64,000 bases of DNA from Burkholderiales bacterium (GTDB lineage: Bacteria; Pseudomonadota; Gammaproteobacteria; Burkholderiales; JACQAP01). The notes below the pieces were generated by a model, which worked only from the letters and a program-made list of their open reading frames with translations, was not told the origin of the DNA and did no database searches. Positions 1,755 through 7,150 of the stretch are shown here, in pieces. The stretch covers positions 81,185-145,184 of the forward strand of contig DASZTG010000080.1 in assembly GCA_035548375.1 (NCBI GenBank), written 5' to 3'. Positions within the stretch are counted from its first letter, which is position 1. Every line of letters starts with the position of its first letter. A program made the translations under genes and the position numbers.

Positions 1755-1880
1755 AGCGGGAAGGGTTGAAGGGAGAAGGGTGAAGGGTAAAGAACTGTCC
1801 CAATACTCAAGCTGGACCCTCCTGTTTTACCCTTCCCCTTTTAACCCTTCTCTCTTCCCTCTTCACCCTTCCCTTCTTAC
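1741..1880. repeat. GTGA/GGGAAGG-unit inverted-repeat element filling the convergent gap between TerB and the protease
   Basis: G-rich arm about 1742-1792 (GGGTGAGGGGTAGAGCGGGAAGGGTTGAAGGGAGAAGGGTGAAGGGTAAAG). Complementary C-rich arm about 1826-1879 (TTTACCCTTCCCCTTTTAACCCTTCTCTCTTCCCTCTTCACCCTTCCCTTCTTA). The arms overlap both stop codons. Confidence 0.7.
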
Positions 1881-4405
1881 GGCACCTTTCCCAGTTCCGC
1901 GCGCAAGTCGCGAAGGTGGGCGAGCGTTTCCGTGTCCCTGGTGCGACCGATCGCGGATTCGAGCTTGGCGTAGAGATGCGCAACACCGGAGCGCAACGAC
2001 GACCGGAATTCGCTCGGCCGGCCGCGTTCGCGGCGATATTCCTTCGCGACATCGGCGAGCGGCGAAGCGGCATCGCGCGATCCGAACCGACCTTGCGAGA
2101 CGGCATGGACCGAGCCGTCTTCCAGCAATTTCTGCGCGTCTATCGAATTGGCGCCGCCTTGCGGATCGTTCGTGGCACCCGTTGCGACCAGCAGCAAGGT
2201 CACGTAGTTGCGTTGCAACTCGCGCCGGTACAGGTCGATCACAGGTTTCTTCGCCTCCAGTTCGCTGAACAGCCCGTTGTTCAAATCGGTCAGCATGTCC
2301 ATGCCACTATAAGGCCTGCCGTCCTGGCGCAGTTGCCGTGCCTCCGCCATGCGCTGGAATACGCCGGGGTCGATGATCTGGCGCATCAGCTGCACGTTGG
2401 CGCCCTGCAAGGCGTCTGCGCCGCCGGAAGGACCGATGCGCATGAGGACTTCCTTGTCGAGCAGCGCCTGCGGGGTGGTCCAGGCCTTTTCCACGAGAAA
2501 CTTCACCGCGGCGCGCTGGCGCGCAGGCGGCACCGGATCGAACGGCGCCTTGCCGCGTCCCGCCTGGTAGCGCGTTTCCTCCACGCCGCCGACGATTTTC
2601 GCCACGGCCGCGAGCTCGCGATAGCGCTGCACCATCAGCGATTGATACATTTCGCGCAGGCGAGAATAGTTGCCGCCCATCTTCGTCGTGGCGGGAATCA
2701 GCAACGGCATCACGCGATCGATGTTCTTCAGCCCGAGTCCCGCGGCCTCGATGGGATCGCCGCCGACGACGTTGGTATTCACCTTGGGATCGATGGTCGC
2801 GTAGTCGTCCTCGCCGCCGAAGCGCAGCATCGGGTCGTTCACCTGTTTCGCGGCCAGTTCATCCAGATGCGGCCACTCGTCATCGCAGCTCATGCCGTTG
2901 GAGAACTGCCGGTAGCCCCACTCGATGGCGAAATAATCGTAGGGCCCGAATTTCGGCAGCAGCGCCGCGCCGTCGCCTGGCTGCGCCACATAGTTCAATC
3001 GCGCGTAGTCCATGATCGAGGCCGACGTGCCCCACTTTTTCGTCCATGCCGGATCGCGAAGCTGGGCAACCGTATAGGCCGAGTGCCCCTTGAAGTTGTG
3101 GCGCAATCCCAGCGCGTGGCCGATTTCGTGCGATACCACGTAGCGCAGCATGTCGCCGATGATTTCATCCGGCAGCGGCAGCTTCTGCGCCCTGGGGTCG
3201 AGCGGCGAAACCTGCGTGAAGTACCAGGTCTCCACCAGGCGCAGCACGTCGTGCCAGAAAATCGCGTGCGAGGAGATGACTTCGCCGCTGCGCGGGTCCA
3301 CGACAGCCGGCCCCATCGCGTTCTGGCGCCCGCTGGGCGTCCAGCGAATCACGTTGAATCGCACGTCCTCCGGATCCCAGTTCGGATCTTCCTCGGGGCC
3401 CGGCGCGTCCCGCGTCTGGATGGCGTTGGAGAATCCGGCCTTCTCGAACACCTTCTGCCAATCCTCGACGCCGGCCTTGAGATAAGGACGCCACTTCTCC
3501 GGGACTTCGTCGCTGATGTAGAAGAGTATGGGCTTCACGGGGTCGGAAACCTCGGCGTCCGGATTTTTCTTCTCCAGGCGATAACGCTGGATGAACGCGC
3601 GGCGGACCTTGCCGTGGTCATTGGTGCCGTAGTCATCGAAAGGCACCGAGAAATAGCCGACGCGATCGTCGGCATAGCGCGGGTCCATCGGCTCCTCGGG
3701 CAGCAGCAGCAGGCTCGAATGGAAGATGAATCCCAGCGCGGCGGGCACGCGCTCCGATTCGTCGTCCACCTGCTTCCTGAGCTCCGTTGCCGAAGGCACC
3801 CAGGTCTGGTGGAAACGGATGTCGATGTTTTGCGGGAACGCCTTGACGCTCTCGATGAACGAGCGCTTCGGGTCGATGGCGTTCATGCGGAAGTACTGCA
3901 TGAACTCGAGCGCGAATCCGTCCGGCACTTCGCTGACGAACAGGCTGGTGATGTCGATGACCGGCGCCTTGTTCTCGCCTTCCATGATGATGTCGAAGGT
4001 CTTGATCACCGTGCGCAGCGACGCCGATTCCACGCCGCGCTGCAACTGCGACATGTTCTGCGCCCACATTTCATAGCGCACGTTCTCGAGATAGAGCTTG
4101 TTGCCGCGACGCACCCAGCGGATCACGCGGTTGTCCACCACCGAGCCGGGCGCGACGAAATCGCTGCCGGTCGACAGCGCCGCGAATTCGATGTTGACCA
4201 GCATGTCCCGGTTCAACAGCTTCTCCGGGATCTCGAACATGACGTGGTCGCAGATCACGTGGACCTTGAACATGCCGGTCAAGGTTTCGACCTTCTGGTC
4301 CATGCCGGCGGGACAGGAAGCCACCATCGCGGAAGTCATTGCGCGAGCCGGCATGATGGCCGTCGACGCAAATAGTAAAGTCGCAATCAGGAAGAGCTTT
4401 TTCAT
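1877..4405 (-). CDS. secreted zinc-dependent metalloprotease (HEIGHALGLRHNF zincin; large DUF4953/DUF5117-like type)
   Basis: ORF 1877..4591. The internal ATG (complement of 4403-4405) gives the signal peptide MKKLFLIATLLFASTAIMPARA. HExxH motif VVSHEIGHALGLRHNFKGHS. 842 aa. Confidence 0.85.
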   Translation of the reverse strand: MKKLFLIATLLFASTAIMPARAMTSAMVASCPAGMDQKVETLTGMFKVHVICDHVMFEIPEKLLNRDMLVNIEFAALSTGSDFVAPGSVVDNRVIRWVRRGNKLYLENVRYEMWAQNMSQLQRGVESASLRTVIKTFDIIMEGENKAPVIDITSLFVSEVPDGFALEFMQYFRMNAIDPKRSFIESVKAFPQNIDIRFHQTWVPSATELRKQVDDESERVPAALGFIFHSSLLLLPEEPMDPRYADDRVGYFSVPFDDYGTNDHGKVRRAFIQRYRLEKKNPDAEVSDPVKPILFYISDEVPEKWRPYLKAGVEDWQKVFEKAGFSNAIQTRDAPGPEEDPNWDPEDVRFNVIRWTPSGRQNAMGPAVVDPRSGEVISSHAIFWHDVLRLVETWYFTQVSPLDPRAQKLPLPDEIIGDMLRYVVSHEIGHALGLRHNFKGHSAYTVAQLRDPAWTKKWGTSASIMDYARLNYVAQPGDGAALLPKFGPYDYFAIEWGYRQFSNGMSCDDEWPHLDELAAKQVNDPMLRFGGEDDYATIDPKVNTNVVGGDPIEAAGLGLKNIDRVMPLLIPATTKMGGNYSRLREMYQSLMVQRYRELAAVAKIVGGVEETRYQAGRGKAPFDPVPPARQRAAVKFLVEKAWTTPQALLDKEVLMRIGPSGGADALQGANVQLMRQIIDPGVFQRMAEARQLRQDGRPYSGMDMLTDLNNGLFSELEAKKPVIDLYRRELQRNYVTLLLVATGATNDPQGGANSIDAQKLLEDGSVHAVSQGRFGSRDAASPLADVAKEYRRERGRPSEFRSSLRSGVAHLYAKLESAIGRTRDTETLAHLRDLRAELGKVP

Positions 4406-4651
4406 ATGAAGTATCCCGCCGGTCGCGTCAGCGGCACGCACTGGCCGTTTCGTCGCTTGCCGACTGTGACGCCGGAAGCGCCAGTTTAACCCGCCAGCCG
4501 CGGTTTTCGAGCATGCGCCCGGCTGCGAATCCACATGTCCGACCGGGGTATACGCCTGCACCCTGCCTGTGGATGCGCGGCGGGCATGCAAGCGACCATC
4601 GGCCGGGCTGGCCGCAGCGGCATCGAGGGGTAAGTCAGGGAAGCTCAGGCG

Positions 4652-5119
4652 TCAGTCAGCGGGTCCGGACGATGCGTTTGTTGCAAAAGCGGCGTCGTCT
4701 TCCTTGCATTTGCCCGTCCACCCGGTGACGAACGCGCGCCGGGTCGCGTGGATGCGCGACAGGTAGCGGTTCTGGATTTCATAGGCCTCCAGCTCTTCGG
4801 AAATGCGCCGGCTGCAAAAGCTCGTCACGACCCCGAACTTTCCGGTGGTTTTCTGAAGGTGGTGCACGAGCTCGTGCAGCAGGACGGAGCGATCGAAGTC
4901 GTCGTGCACGAAATCCAGGGTCTCGTCGACGATGACGCCCGCGTCGGGATGATAGTAGGCTTTGACGCGACACTGCCTGCCGCCGCACAGGCGCTGCTGG
5001 ATTTGCGCCATCGGCAACGCGTGGATTTCGGGCAGCGAGTCCGGGGCAGGATAGGCCGAAACCAGCCGGATCGCGGCGAACAACTCGACCATCAGGGACA
5101 AGATCGCAGACTGATCCAC
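4652..5119 (-). CDS. small HExxH (minimal zincin-like) protein, paralog A
   Basis: 155 aa with a GTG start preceded by GAAGGAGG. HELVH is encoded at 4862-4876, with a downstream EELEAYEIQ. Four Cys residues are conserved with the neighbouring paralog. Confidence 0.6.
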   Translation of the reverse strand: MDQSAILSLMVELFAAIRLVSAYPAPDSLPEIHALPMAQIQQRLCGGRQCRVKAYYHPDAGVIVDETLDFVHDDFDRSVLLHELVHHLQKTTGKFGVVTSFCSRRISEELEAYEIQNRYLSRIHATRRAFVTGWTGKCKEDDAAFATNASSGPAD

Positions 5120-5175
5120 TGCGCCTCCTTCGAGCGTTTCCCCTGACAGACTACATCAGTTGCCTGTTCACCCGT

Positions 5176-5595
5176 TCAATAGTCGCAACGCGTGCGCCAT
5201 GCATTCACGTTGACCCGGTGCGCGTCGTGGACGGCCTCGAGGTACAGGTTCTGGATCTGGTAGGCCTGCCGCTCGGCCGCGAACCAGCGCACGCAGGGCG
5301 ACGGGATCTTCTCGAAAGTGCCGCTCACGCGCTGGGCATAGTGAACCAGCTCGTGCAACAGGATGGACCGCGCGAATTCGTCTTTTTCTAGGTCGAGCGC
5401 CTCATCGATGTAGATCCCATCCTCGGCGTTATAGAACGCTTCCGCCGCGCAGCTGCCATGGCAGAAACGCTCGCGAACTTCGGCGAGCGGAGCCTGGTGA
5501 ATCTCGGGAAGCGTACCCGGCACGGCATATCCCGTCAGCGAATGCACGGACGCCAGCAGTTCAAATGCCAGGGCGGACAGTGAAAACGAGTCCAT
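5176..5595 (-). CDS. small HExxH (minimal zincin-like) protein, paralog B
   Basis: ORF 5176..5658. The ATG (complement of 5593-5595) is preceded by AGGAGC and gives MDSFSLSALAFELL.... HELVH is encoded at 5341-5355. The protein aligns with paralog A along its whole length. Confidence 0.6.
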   Translation of the reverse strand: MDSFSLSALAFELLASVHSLTGYAVPGTLPEIHQAPLAEVRERFCHGSCAAEAFYNAEDGIYIDEALDLEKDEFARSILLHELVHYAQRVSGTFEKIPSPCVRWFAAERQAYQIQNLYLEAVHDAHRVNVNAWRTRCDY

Positions 5596-5812
5596 GTCTT
5601 GCTCCTGGACCGGCGCTTCCCCCCGACCCCGCCGGGCCGGTACGTGATGTTTTTGCAACTTCTGGCTTGATGCGTCGCAATATCCAGGCCAGCTGAATTG
5701 ACCACCTAAGCACGCAAAACAAGTCTAAAAGCACCGACACGGTGCGCAATACGTCCCGGTTTCTCCAAGAAAGGGCGTTTGCGCCGGCAAGCCTGTAAAA
5801 ATTACTCGACAA

Positions 5813-6655
5813 CTACTCGCCCGAAAGCCACGCCACCCGATGGCCGCCGGCTCCATCTCGCGCGAGCGCGACCTGCAACCACTTGAGCATCGCCTGCGCC
5901 TGAACCTCGAAACCGAAAGGCGGATTGACCACGATCATTCCGCAGCCGCGCATGCCCTCGGTCCAGCCTTCGGCGGTGACGGAGATTTCGAGTTGGAGCA
6001 TTTTGCGGATGCCGGTTTCCGCCATGCCTCGCTCGAACGCGCGCATCGCCGTCGACTCCATCAGGGGATACCAGAGCGCATAAACGCCGGTGGCAAATCG
6101 ACGATGGGCTTCGGCCAGGCCTTCGGTCAGCCGGTCGAATTCCCGCGCCCTGTCGAAGGAGGAATCGATGAAGACCAGGCCGCGCCTTTCCTTCGGCGGC
6201 AGGAAGGCCCGCAGGGATTGGTAGCCATCCATCAGGTGCACGGTGGTCTGCCGGTCCTTCAGAAACAGGTTGCCCAGGCTCTCGCAATCCTTCCGGTTGA
6301 GCTCGATCAGCACGAGGCGATCGACCGGCCGCAGCAACCGCCGCACGATGCGCGGCGATCCCGGGTAGAAACGCATCGCGCCTGCCGTGTTTTCACCGCG
6401 GATGGCGTCGAAATAGGGAACGAATTCGTTCGGCACGTCCTTGCGTCCCCACACGAGCGACACGCCGTCGCGATGCTCGGCGTTCTTCTGTGCCCACTCG
6501 TGCTCCAGGTCGTAGCGGCCGATGCCGGCGTGGGTGTCGAGCACGAAGAACGGCTTGTCCTTCCTCTGCAGCCCGAGAACCAGCCGGCTCAGCAGGGAAT
6601 GCTTGAAGACGTCCGCAAAATTGCCGGCGTGGAAAAGATGGCGATAGGCGAGCAT
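5813..6655 (-). CDS. rlmJ: 23S rRNA (adenine2030-N6)-methyltransferase
   Basis: The internal ATG of ORF 5813..6721 gives MLAYRHLFHAGNFADVFKHSLLSRLV...LDTHAGIGRYDL, the characteristic RlmJ N-terminus. 280 aa. Confidence 0.85.
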   Translation of the reverse strand: MLAYRHLFHAGNFADVFKHSLLSRLVLGLQRKDKPFFVLDTHAGIGRYDLEHEWAQKNAEHRDGVSLVWGRKDVPNEFVPYFDAIRGENTAGAMRFYPGSPRIVRRLLRPVDRLVLIELNRKDCESLGNLFLKDRQTTVHLMDGYQSLRAFLPPKERRGLVFIDSSFDRAREFDRLTEGLAEAHRRFATGVYALWYPLMESTAMRAFERGMAETGIRKMLQLEISVTAEGWTEGMRGCGMIVVNPPFGFEVQAQAMLKWLQVALARDGAGGHRVAWLSGE

Positions 6656-6754
6656 CGGAACGCGCGTGAGTCGGCGGCGGGCGGTTGGGAACGCGGCGGA
6701 AGTCTGGGATAATCGCCCCATCTTCCAACCCGTCCCCGATGCGGGAATTCTGTC

Positions 6755-7150
6755 ATGGCCGCCGACAACACACCAGAACTCAAGATGGACCCCGCCAATC
6801 TCTATCGCGAGGAGATCTTCACCGATCGCAAGATCGGCACCATCCGCGTCATGACACCCGTCAAGAGCGACAGTTCATTCGACGCCGCGCGCAAGGTGCT
6901 CTACGTGGGCGAAACCCAGCTCATGACGCCGGTCGGCGCGCTGCCGCTGGCCTTCGAGATCGAGGCGACGAATCTGGGCGAAGCGTCCGAGGGGTTCGCG
7001 GGCGCGGCGGCGGTCGCCGTCGAACGCGCGGTCAAGGAATTGCAGGAGATGCGGCGCCAGCAAAGCTCGTCGATCGTCATTCCCGAAGGCATGCCCGGCG
7101 GGTTCGGCGGTCCCGGCGGAATGGGCGGCGGCAAGATCAAGCTGCCCTGA
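6755..7150 (+). CDS. conserved hypothetical protein with a Gly-rich C-terminal tail
   Basis: 131-aa ORF with an ATG start and G/C-biased third positions. It abuts upp. No motif recognised (…GMPGGFGGPGGMGGGKIKLP tail). Confidence 0.5.
   Translation: MAADNTPELKMDPANLYREEIFTDRKIGTIRVMTPVKSDSSFDAARKVLYVGETQLMTPVGALPLAFEIEATNLGEASEGFAGAAAVAVERAVKELQEMRRQQSSSIVIPEGMPGGFGGPGGMGGGKIKLP

What the first reader, a model, noticed from the sequence alone, without database searches (positions are those of the whole stretch)
1877..5658. Tandem paralogous small Cys-containing HExxH proteins upstream of a large secreted zinc metalloprotease
Two adjacent same-strand genes (4652-5119 and 5176-5595) encode proteins of 139-155 aa. 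By my eye alignment they are roughly 40 percent identical. Both carry LPEIH...(C-x3-4-C)...LLHELVH(H/Y)xQ...C...(E)xxAY(E/Q)IQN(R/L)YL...C. That is an HExxH with a Glu about 25 residues downstream (gluzincin-like spacing) and four conserved Cys. Neither has an obvious signal peptide and both have strong SD sequences. About 250 nt downstream on the same strand lies an 842-aa signal-peptide zincin (HEIGHALGLRHNF). I cannot place the small proteins in a named family with confidence. They could be minimal proteases, SprT/ImmA-like regulators, or processing or immunity factors related to the large protease.
Basis: partly seen in the sequence, partly recalled or inferred. Interest (0 to 1): 0.6.

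Follow-up and report, generated by a model that had tools for sequence, protein, structure and literature searches.

The report
Tandem DUF6647 mini-zincin paralogs
The two small HExxH genes are real, conserved members of the uncharacterised DUF6647 family of minimal zinc-protease-like proteins, and their position next to the large secreted protease is a lineage-specific accident of gene order rather than a functional partnership.

Summary
Two minus-strand genes, B (5176-5595, 139 aa) and A (4652-5119, 155 aa), are 41% identical (E 9e-43). Both carry HExxH, a downstream Glu and four Cys. An 842-aa signal-peptide metzincin (DUF5118/DUF5117/DUF4953) starts 246 nt downstream.

The small proteins belong to Pfam DUF6647 (PF20352), an uncharacterised family already proposed to join peptidase clan MA. 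AlphaFold2 gives both the same confident minimal zincin fold (pLDDT 90 and 92). H82, E83, H86, Q89, E109 and the four Cys are nearly invariant across 150 distant cluster representatives.

In this uncultured soil Burkholderiales genus, short copies without a signal peptide form arrays of 1-4 anciently diverged paralogs. The arrays sit in a fixed slot after rlmJ, and each paralog type holds a fixed position.

The protease follows the array in only 9 of 21 fully flanked species loci, and all of these fall in one sub-clade. Six near-complete genomes have arrays but no such protease. The spacer between array and protease is 193-706 nt and cannot be aligned.

A sister clade of long, Sec-exported DUF6647 proteins is instead tightly linked to a Sel1-repeat gene.

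Most likely A and B are cytoplasmic mini-gluzincin peptidases with unknown substrates. They are ordinary but uncharacterised; interest is modest.

The parts
5176..5595 (-). Gene B: short-form DUF6647 mini-zincin paralog, 139 aa, no signal peptide. HExxH at residues 81-85, E108, and Cys 45/49/101/137 (numbering of alignment A3).
   Evidence: ORF. It is 41% identical to A. Pfam DUF6647 scores 17.2 bits, below GA 24.1, with weak SprT-like and M91 hits. The AF2 model has pLDDT 92.4 and the same topology as A. The B orthogroup holds 17 rows with SH-aLRT 97. dN/dS is 0.11-0.18.
5120..5175 (-). 56-nt B-A spacer containing the GAAGGAGG Shine-Dalgarno sequence of A. Similar short spacing of about 60-70 nt occurs in orthologous arrays, so B and A are probably co-transcribed (inference).
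   Evidence: Sequence.
4652..5119 (-). Gene A: short-form DUF6647 mini-zincin paralog, 155 aa, GTG start, no signal peptide. H82-E83-x-x-H86, Q89, E109, and C45/C50/C102/C138.
   Evidence: ORF. Pfam DUF6647 scores 30.3 bits, above GA 24.1. There are 243 close homologues, and the named ones are called 'DUF6647 family protein'. The AF2 model has pLDDT 89.7 and pTM 0.83. The A orthogroup holds 26 rows with SH-aLRT 98. dN/dS is 0.06-0.24.
4406..4651 (-). 246-nt spacer between A and the protease gene. The equivalent spacer in relatives is 193-706 nt and cannot be aligned, which argues against tight coupling.
   Evidence: No consensus promoter or terminator was found here.
1877..4405 (-). Neighbouring gene, not a functional partner on present evidence. 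It encodes an 842-aa Sec-exported metzincin (DUF5118 + DUF5117 + DUF4953; HEIGHALGLRH).
   Evidence: Orthologues of 80-86% identity follow the array in only one sub-clade. A 66%-identical paralog elsewhere in the genome (G000:C11) has no DUF6647 neighbour.
5813..6721 (-). Upstream flank: rlmJ (23S rRNA methyltransferase). It is the conserved anchor of the slot that holds the DUF6647 array throughout the genus.
   Evidence: Pfam RsmJ/RlmJ E 1.7e-76. rlmJ lies upstream of the array in every fully flanked locus.

Best explanation
A and B are two anciently diverged paralogs of the short, signal-peptide-less sub-family of DUF6647 (PF20352). This is an uncharacterised family of minimal zincin (gluzincin-type, clan-MA-like) proteins.

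Each protein is a single compact domain. It consists of an N-terminal helix, a three-stranded sheet, the HExxH active-site helix and a following 'glutamate helix'.

Inferred mechanism:
- One catalytic Zn is held by H82, H86 and E109 (A numbering).
- E83 acts as the general base.
- An extended peptide binds along the edge strand of the sheet.
- The four invariant Cys either tether the loop and the C-terminal tail or hold a second, structural metal.

The proteins work in the cytoplasm as small peptidases, or peptide- or protein-binding zincins, on substrates not yet known.

They belong to a genus-specific array of 1-4 position-conserved paralogs in the slot after rlmJ. The array is probably one transcription unit. 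The paralogs have probably diverged in specificity, or they may act together.

The large DUF4953 metzincin downstream is an independent gene that entered this slot in one sub-lineage. It is not their substrate, target or partner.

Shown: family membership, fold class, residue conservation, array structure and the optional presence of the protease. Inferred: metal ligands, catalysis, cytoplasmic location, operon structure and the role of the Cys.
For: Family:
- A passes the Pfam gathering threshold for DUF6647.
- All 12 aligned paralogs hit DUF6647.
- Homologues named by NCBI are called 'DUF6647 family protein'.
- PMC11467057 argues that DUF6647 belongs to peptidase clan MA as a mini-zincin.

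Fold:
- The AF2 models of A and B are confident (pLDDT 89.7 and 92.4) and share one zincin-type topology.
- The best Foldseek hits are all zincins: PprI/IrrE, YbeY, SPRTN, M48 and BlaR1, plus phage IrrE-like, M48 and SprT-like proteins. The best TM-score is 0.60 at E 1.5e-3.

Conservation:
- H82, E83, H86, Q89, E109 and the Cys are nearly invariant in 150 representatives of 50%-identity clusters.
- All four Cys are present in 116 of 132 full-length sequences.
- dN/dS is 0.06-0.24.

No export signal:
- Starts are conserved at MDxxxL.
- The sister clade carries signal peptides in 37 of 40 cases.

Array:
- There are 1-4 tandem copies after rlmJ in 21 fully flanked species loci.
- There are at least 6 orthogroups in the fixed order [E or B]-A-C-D.

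Protease independence:
- Among fully flanked loci, 9 have the protease and 12 lack it. Three further partial loci also lack it.
- All loci with the protease fall in one 14-row sub-clade, which also contains two loci without it.
- G008, G009, G016, G018, G021 and G023 (90-100% complete) have arrays but no protease hit at E<=1e-20.
- The spacer is variable and cannot be aligned.
Against: - No biochemical data exist for any DUF6647 member, so catalysis is inferred from motif conservation only.
- Foldseek matches to solved zincins are weak (E >= 0.25, TM <= 0.46), so the fold class rests on topology plus motif.
- Four invariant Cys in a cytoplasmic protein are unexplained. They are equally conserved in the exported sister clade, and I could not inspect model coordinates to see whether they cluster.
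- The same-strand adjacency of the protease in about 10 species is compatible with co-transcription in those species.
Confidence: 0.7

Rival explanations
1. A and B are accessory factors of the neighbouring secreted DUF4953 metzincin. They would act as a maturation protease, an intracellular inhibitor or immunity factor, or a chaperone, and would be co-expressed with it as one module.
For: The genes share a strand and lie next to each other. The B-A-protease order is conserved in about 10 species of the genus.
Against: - All protease-linked loci belong to one sub-clade, so they amount to about one evolutionary event.
- 12 fully flanked and 3 partial loci go straight from the array to TerB/GST or other genes.
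- Six near-complete genomes have arrays and no such protease.
- Paralogous and 73%-identical protease copies lie on other contigs without DUF6647.
- The spacer is 193-706 nt and not conserved.
- The small proteins have no export signal whereas the protease does.
Confidence: 0.08
2. They are regulatory zincins of the ImmA/IrrE, SprT or MtfA type. Each paralog would cleave or titrate one specific cytoplasmic regulator or a DNA-protein adduct, rather than acting as a general peptidase.
For: - The top structural matches are PprI/IrrE (8sln), SPRTN (6mdx) and phage IrrE-like or SprT-like proteins.
- There are weak Pfam hits to SprT-like, M90 (MtfA) and M76.
- JGI labels some homologues MtfA.
- The cytoplasmic location and multiple diverged paralogs fit specific targets.
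Against: - All of these matches are below family thresholds (SprT-like 16.4 against 25.6 bits; Foldseek E >= 0.25 in PDB).
- No HTH/XRE gene lies beside any array or single copy.
- There is no SprT zinc ribbon and no third-His motif.
- The sister clade is periplasmic and paired with a Sel1 protein, which does not fit DNA- or repressor-directed action.
Confidence: 0.15
3. They are not proteases. The HExxH/E site and the four Cys would serve metal binding or redox sensing, for example as a zinc buffer or chaperone or a thiol switch, and the array would provide dosage.
For: Four Cys are nearly invariant in a protein without an export signal. Copy number varies from 1 to 4. No substrate or partner is evident from context.
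Against: - The catalytic base E83 and the whole zincin signature are as conserved as the ligands.
- The paralogs are anciently diverged orthogroups at about 40-50% identity, not recent dosage duplicates.
- The same Cys are conserved in the exported clade, where disulfides are the expected state.
Confidence: 0.07

Closest known systems
Pfam DUF6647 (PF20352); NCBI 'DUF6647 family protein'
   Same: A scores above the gathering threshold. All paralogs match the profile. They share the HExxHxxQ ... E..AY..Q signature and four Cys.
   Different: A and B match only the C-terminal two thirds of the 174-position profile and lack a signal peptide. B alone falls below the threshold. The family has no known function. 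The short/long split, the Sel1 linkage and the tandem arrays are not mentioned in the one paper found by a search for the family name.
Mini-zincins (Acel_2062, PDB 3e11; TTHA0227, PDB 2ejq; Trame et al. 2014, PMC3890501)
   Same: Single-domain zincin scaffold of about 110-150 aa. PMC11467057 names this as the likely structural class of DUF6647. 2ejq is the only PDB chain found by sequence.
   Different: That match is insignificant (E 2.4). Mini-zincins of that family are Asp-zincins with the motif HExxHxxGxxD. Here the motif is HExxHxxQ with a Glu 23 residues after the second His, and four Cys are added.
Minigluzincins (proabylysin, projannalysin) and M48/M56 catalytic cores (own knowledge: Lopez-Pelegrin et al. 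2013, J Biol Chem)
   Same: Minimal soluble gluzincin built from HExxH plus a Glu on the next helix. The size is similar. A C-terminal tail could occupy the cleft.
   Different: No sequence match was found. The M48-like structure 3c37 and BlaR1 appear only at Foldseek E > 4 with TM about 0.3. Minigluzincins have no Cys set.
ImmA/IrrE (PprI) and SprT/SPRTN zincins
   Same: These are the best structural neighbours: 8sln at E 0.25 and 6mdx at TM 0.46, plus phage IrrE-like, M48 and SprT-like models at TM 0.41-0.47. They are cytoplasmic, small zincin cores.
   Different: There is no partner HTH repressor gene, no DNA-binding or zinc-ribbon module, and Pfam scores are below threshold. They are resemblances in fold class only.
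MtfA (Peptidase M90), the Mlc titration factor
   Same: A cytoplasmic gluzincin-like protein that acts on or with a regulator. Some homologues carry this label from JGI. Two paralogs give weak M90 hits, best E 4.9e-4.
   Different: MtfA is about 265 aa with an extra N-terminal domain. The match is confined to the HExxH region. No Mlc-like partner is present.

Membership tests
DUF6647 (PF20352) | Score at or above the Pfam gathering threshold (24.1 bits) | tested here: met
   A scores 30.3 bits and the third genomic copy 29.8 bits. B scores 17.2 bits alone, but it is homologous to A at E 9e-43 and nests inside the family tree.
DUF6647 (PF20352) | Conserved HExxH with a candidate third ligand, as described in PMC11467057 | tested here: met
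   In an alignment of 151 sequences (A plus 150 cluster representatives), H82 is present in 142, E83 in 140, H86 in 142 and E109 in 137. Most of the rest are gaps from truncated fragments.
Gluzincins / peptidase clan MA | HExxH on one helix and a Glu ligand on the following helix, in a zincin alpha/beta fold | tested here: met
   AF2 places helix 74-92 with HExxH, helix 101-122 with E109 and a 3-stranded sheet. Only zincins appear among the interpretable Foldseek hits. Ligand geometry was not inspected because no coordinates were available.
Gluzincins / peptidase clan MA | Zinc binding and peptide hydrolysis | not testable with these tools
   This needs purified protein.
Mini-zincin (Acel_2062 type, Asp-zincin) | HExxHxxGxxD motif | tested here: not met
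   A reads HELVHHLQKTT and B reads HELVHYAQRVS. The PDB sequence hit 2ejq has E 2.4.
SprT-like (PF10263) | Pfam threshold score; C-terminal zinc ribbon | tested here: not met
   B scores 16.4 bits against a threshold of 25.6, and A has no hit. There is no CxxC...CxxC ribbon; the Cys are dispersed.
ImmA/IrrE (M78) protease-repressor pairs | Adjacent XRE/HTH repressor gene; match to the M78 profile | tested here: not met
   There is no Pfam hit. The neighbours are rlmJ, DUF6647 paralogs, TerB, GST or the protease.
Protease plus cognate accessory module with the DUF4953 metzincin | Linkage conserved across independent lineages | tested here: not met
   Linkage is confined to one sub-clade. Twelve fully flanked and 3 partial loci have arrays without the protease, and 6 genomes have arrays and no such protease at all.
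Known anti-phage defence or phage families | Match to PADLOC or PHROGs models | tested here: not met
   There are no PADLOC hits and no PHROG hit below E 0.004. There is no plasmid match.

The most novel reading that the evidence does not exclude
DUF6647 is a two-branch family of working mini-proteases that depend on a partner. The exported branch would act with its operonic Sel1-repeat protein as a periplasmic protease-adaptor (or protease-inhibitor) pair. The cytoplasmic branch in this genus would have replaced that partner by paralogs of itself. The position-conserved array (B/E-A-C-D) would then encode a hetero-oligomeric or mutually regulating set of mini-zincins, with the four Cys forming a redox or metal switch.
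Probability: 0.15. Interest if true: 0.55.

Novelty: new member of a known kind. Interest (0 to 1): 0.28.

Why it matters
This places two unannotated-looking genes in a named but uncharacterised family and removes a tempting but unsupported 'protease plus helper' reading.

The by-products are modestly useful to anyone who wants to de-orphan DUF6647:
- The family splits into a cytoplasmic short form and a Sec-exported long form.
- The long form has a strongly conserved Sel1-repeat partner, which is the best handle on function.
- One soil Burkholderiales genus keeps up to four ancient paralogs in a fixed order.

None of this overturns current knowledge.

Tried and rejected
- The sequence search of the PDB gave only 2ejq at E 2.4.
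- Foldseek against PDB gave no hit at E <= 0.001. BFVD gave only one borderline hit.
- PADLOC, PHROGs and plasmid searches were empty.
- The consensus promoter and terminator scan found nothing useful around the genes.
- Alignment of the array-protease spacers found no conserved element.
- Out-of-genus single copies were inspected for a recurrent neighbour and none was found.
- Earlier scan notes contained nothing on this family.
- The reading frame reaching 5658 for B was rejected because orthologues share the downstream start.
- The 819-aa plus-strand ORF 1916-4375 opposite the protease lies wholly within the protease gene on the other strand. I treat it as a shadow frame of a GC-rich gene.


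Full report
**1. The observation**

All three genes lie on the minus strand.
- B is 5176-5595 (ATG start, 139 aa).
- A is 4652-5119 (GTG start, 155 aa).
- The large gene is 1877-4405 (842 aa, counted from MKKLFLIATLL...).

A and B are 41% identical and 62% similar over 138 residues, with E 9e-43. These are LPEIH, C-x3/4-C, LLHELVH(H/Y)xQ, a third Cys, E-x2-AY-x-IQN and a C-terminal Cys.

A is preceded by GAAGGAGG and B by CAGGAG. The longer frame for B that reaches 5658 is not the gene. In 44 distinct copies from relatives, the start is the conserved M-D-x-x-x-L.

The large protein has a Sec-type signal peptide and HEIGHALGLRH. It matches DUF5118, DUF5117 and DUF4953 'Met-zincin' (E 1e-92).

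Both small genes are under purifying selection, with dN/dS 0.06-0.24 at saturated dS.

**2. What the small proteins are**

*Family.* A matches Pfam DUF6647 (PF20352) at 30.3 bits, above the gathering score of 24.1. B scores 17.2 bits on its own, with weak SprT-like and M91 hits. All 12 paralogs in alignment A1 hit DUF6647. The only other hits are weak ones to zincin families: M91, M76, M90, SprT-like and eCIS_core.

Close homologues number 243. Where they carry a name it is 'DUF6647 family protein', 'hypothetical protein' or, from JGI, 'MtfA'.

An exhaustive phmmer search of 1.84 billion cluster representatives finds only 591 at E <= 1e-3, so the family is small.

The only paper mentioning it is PMC11467057. 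That paper argues from embeddings and an AF2 superposition that DUF6647 belongs to peptidase clan MA as a 'mini-zincin'.

*Fold.* AlphaFold2 models of A (pLDDT 89.7, pTM 0.83) and B (pLDDT 92.4, pTM 0.89) have the same topology:
- helix 3-20
- strand 32-35
- helix 37-45
- strands 54-57 and 61-65
- helix 74-92, carrying HExxH
- helix 101-122, carrying E109

This is a minimal zincin layout. Foldseek finds no close solved relative; the best PDB hit has E 0.25. Every interpretable hit is nevertheless a zincin:
- PprI/IrrE, YbeY, SPRTN, an M48-like protein and BlaR1 in the PDB
- IrrE-like, M48 and SprT-like phage models, plus an unnamed best hit (A0A2I7RF10) with TM 0.60 at E 1.5e-3, in BFVD

By sequence, the PDB gives only the mini-zincin 2ejq at E 2.4.

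*Conservation.* I aligned A with the 150 best 50%-identity representatives, 151 sequences in all. H82, E83, H86, Q89, E109, A112 and the four Cys are nearly invariant. All four Cys occur together in 116 of 132 full-length sequences. The refutation criterion 'HExxH not conserved' is therefore not met.

**3. Two forms of the family**

The window's genome has four copies: A and B, a third short copy on contig C62, and a 206-aa copy on C22. The C22 copy has a clear signal peptide (MIKAGLALVFVAAFTAHA/AEQ).

In a tree of 124 copies, the long forms make one clade of 38 rows and the short forms another of 77 rows.

Of 40 copies in the loci that hold the long forms, 37 have a signal-peptide-like N-terminus. 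Of the same 40, 31 have a Sel1-repeat gene upstream on the same strand. The gap is often 0-50 nt or a 4-nt overlap, as in the window's own genome.

The short forms start exactly at the first helix of the fold and have no export signal.

**4. The array**

In this uncultured soil Burkholderiales genus, the short forms sit in one syntenic slot: upp <- 131-aa gene <- | rlmJ -> [array] -> ... <- TerB <- GST. The record titles read 'Betaproteobacteria/Burkholderiales bacterium' MAGs.

Among 21 species loci with both flanks present, copy number is distributed as follows:

| Copies in array | Loci |
|---|---|
| 1 | 2 |
| 2 | 10 (including the window) |
| 3 | 6 |
| 4 | 3 |

The copies are not recent duplicates. 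They fall into at least six well-supported orthogroups, including A (26 rows, SH-aLRT 98) and B (17 rows, SH-aLRT 97). The order along the array is fixed as [E or B]-A-C-D.

Outside the genus the family is rare. Eight of 249 other genomes, sampled evenly across the class, hold a relative. These copies are mostly single (two of the eight genomes hold two, unlinked) and sit in unrelated contexts.

So the tandem arrangement is real, but it is a property of this lineage and not of the family.

**5. The large protease is not a partner**

- Orthologues at 80-86% identity follow the array in the window and in eight other fully flanked species loci, plus one partial locus.
- In 12 fully flanked loci and 3 partial ones, the array is followed directly by TerB/GST or other genes.
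- All protease-bearing loci fall in one 14-row sub-clade of the A tree. That sub-clade also contains two loci without the protease. The pattern is therefore about one gain and one loss, not repeated association.
- Six genomes that are 90-100% complete have arrays but no protease hit at E <= 1e-20.
- The 66%-identical paralog in the window's genome (contig C11), and the paralogs or 73%-identical copies in other genomes, lie on contigs without DUF6647.
- The spacer between the last array gene and the protease is 193-706 nt and cannot be aligned. The B-A spacing, by contrast, is a steady 56-70 nt.
- The protease is exported, while A and B have no export signal.

**6. Mechanism**

*Shown:* family, fold class, conserved residues, array architecture and independence from the protease.

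*Inferred:*
- Each protein binds one catalytic Zn through H82, H86 and E109.
- E83 activates water.
- A peptide docks on the edge strand, as in other gluzincins.
- The proteins act in the cytoplasm.
- B and A are co-transcribed.
- The paralogs differ in specificity or act together.

The four Cys are unexplained. They are equally conserved in the exported clade, where disulfides would be expected, and in the cytoplasmic clade. I could not read coordinates to see whether they pair or cluster.

The Sel1 partner of the long form suggests that the family works with a protein partner. That idea underlies the 'novel case', to which I give 15%.

**7. Comparison and novelty**

These are members of a known, named, uncharacterised family. 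NCBI already annotates homologues as 'DUF6647 family protein', and a clan MA affinity has been proposed in print. I file the finding as a new member of a known kind.

The following were tested and not met:
- mini-zincin of the Acel_2062 type (HExxHxxGxxD motif)
- SprT-like
- ImmA/IrrE pairs
- defence systems

I did not find three things described: the short/long split, the Sel1 linkage and the position-conserved arrays. They are modest additions.

**8. Limits**

- No multimer prediction was possible.
- No model coordinates were available.
- All relatives are MAGs.
- The genus-level loci are related to each other, so counts of loci are not independent events.

Noticed in passing
L031:6053-7536 (own genome G000:C22:78053-79536, minus strand): A 206-aa signal-peptide DUF6647 protein overlaps by 4 nt the stop of an upstream 288-aa signal-peptide Sel1-repeat gene. 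The same Sel1 -> DUF6647 pair recurs in 31 of the 40 copies examined in the long-form loci, across several Burkholderiales lineages. It is a conserved two-gene unit that I did not find described.
   Followed up: partly
L030:1082-8893 (own genome G000:C62): The third short DUF6647 copy (3324-3758) lies between a PQQ-dependent dehydrogenase (582 aa) and an ECF sigma / FecR / STN-TonB-receptor trio. The same neighbourhood occurs in L062, and the PQQ dehydrogenase also neighbours copies in L064, L066 and L067.
   Followed up: partly
window 6755-7150 (+): A conserved 131-aa protein with no Pfam match and a Gly-rich C-terminal tail. It is always divergent from rlmJ in this genus and is 73-93% identical across species, 65% in the most distant locus.
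   Followed up: no
G000:C11:56439-58979: A second DUF4953-type metzincin paralog, 66% identical to the one in the window. Orthologues of this paralog are more widespread in the genus than the array-linked copy.
   Followed up: no
window 1916-4375 (+): An 819-aa open frame that lies wholly within the protease gene on the opposite strand. I read it as a shadow ORF of a GC-rich gene, not a gene.
   Followed up: no
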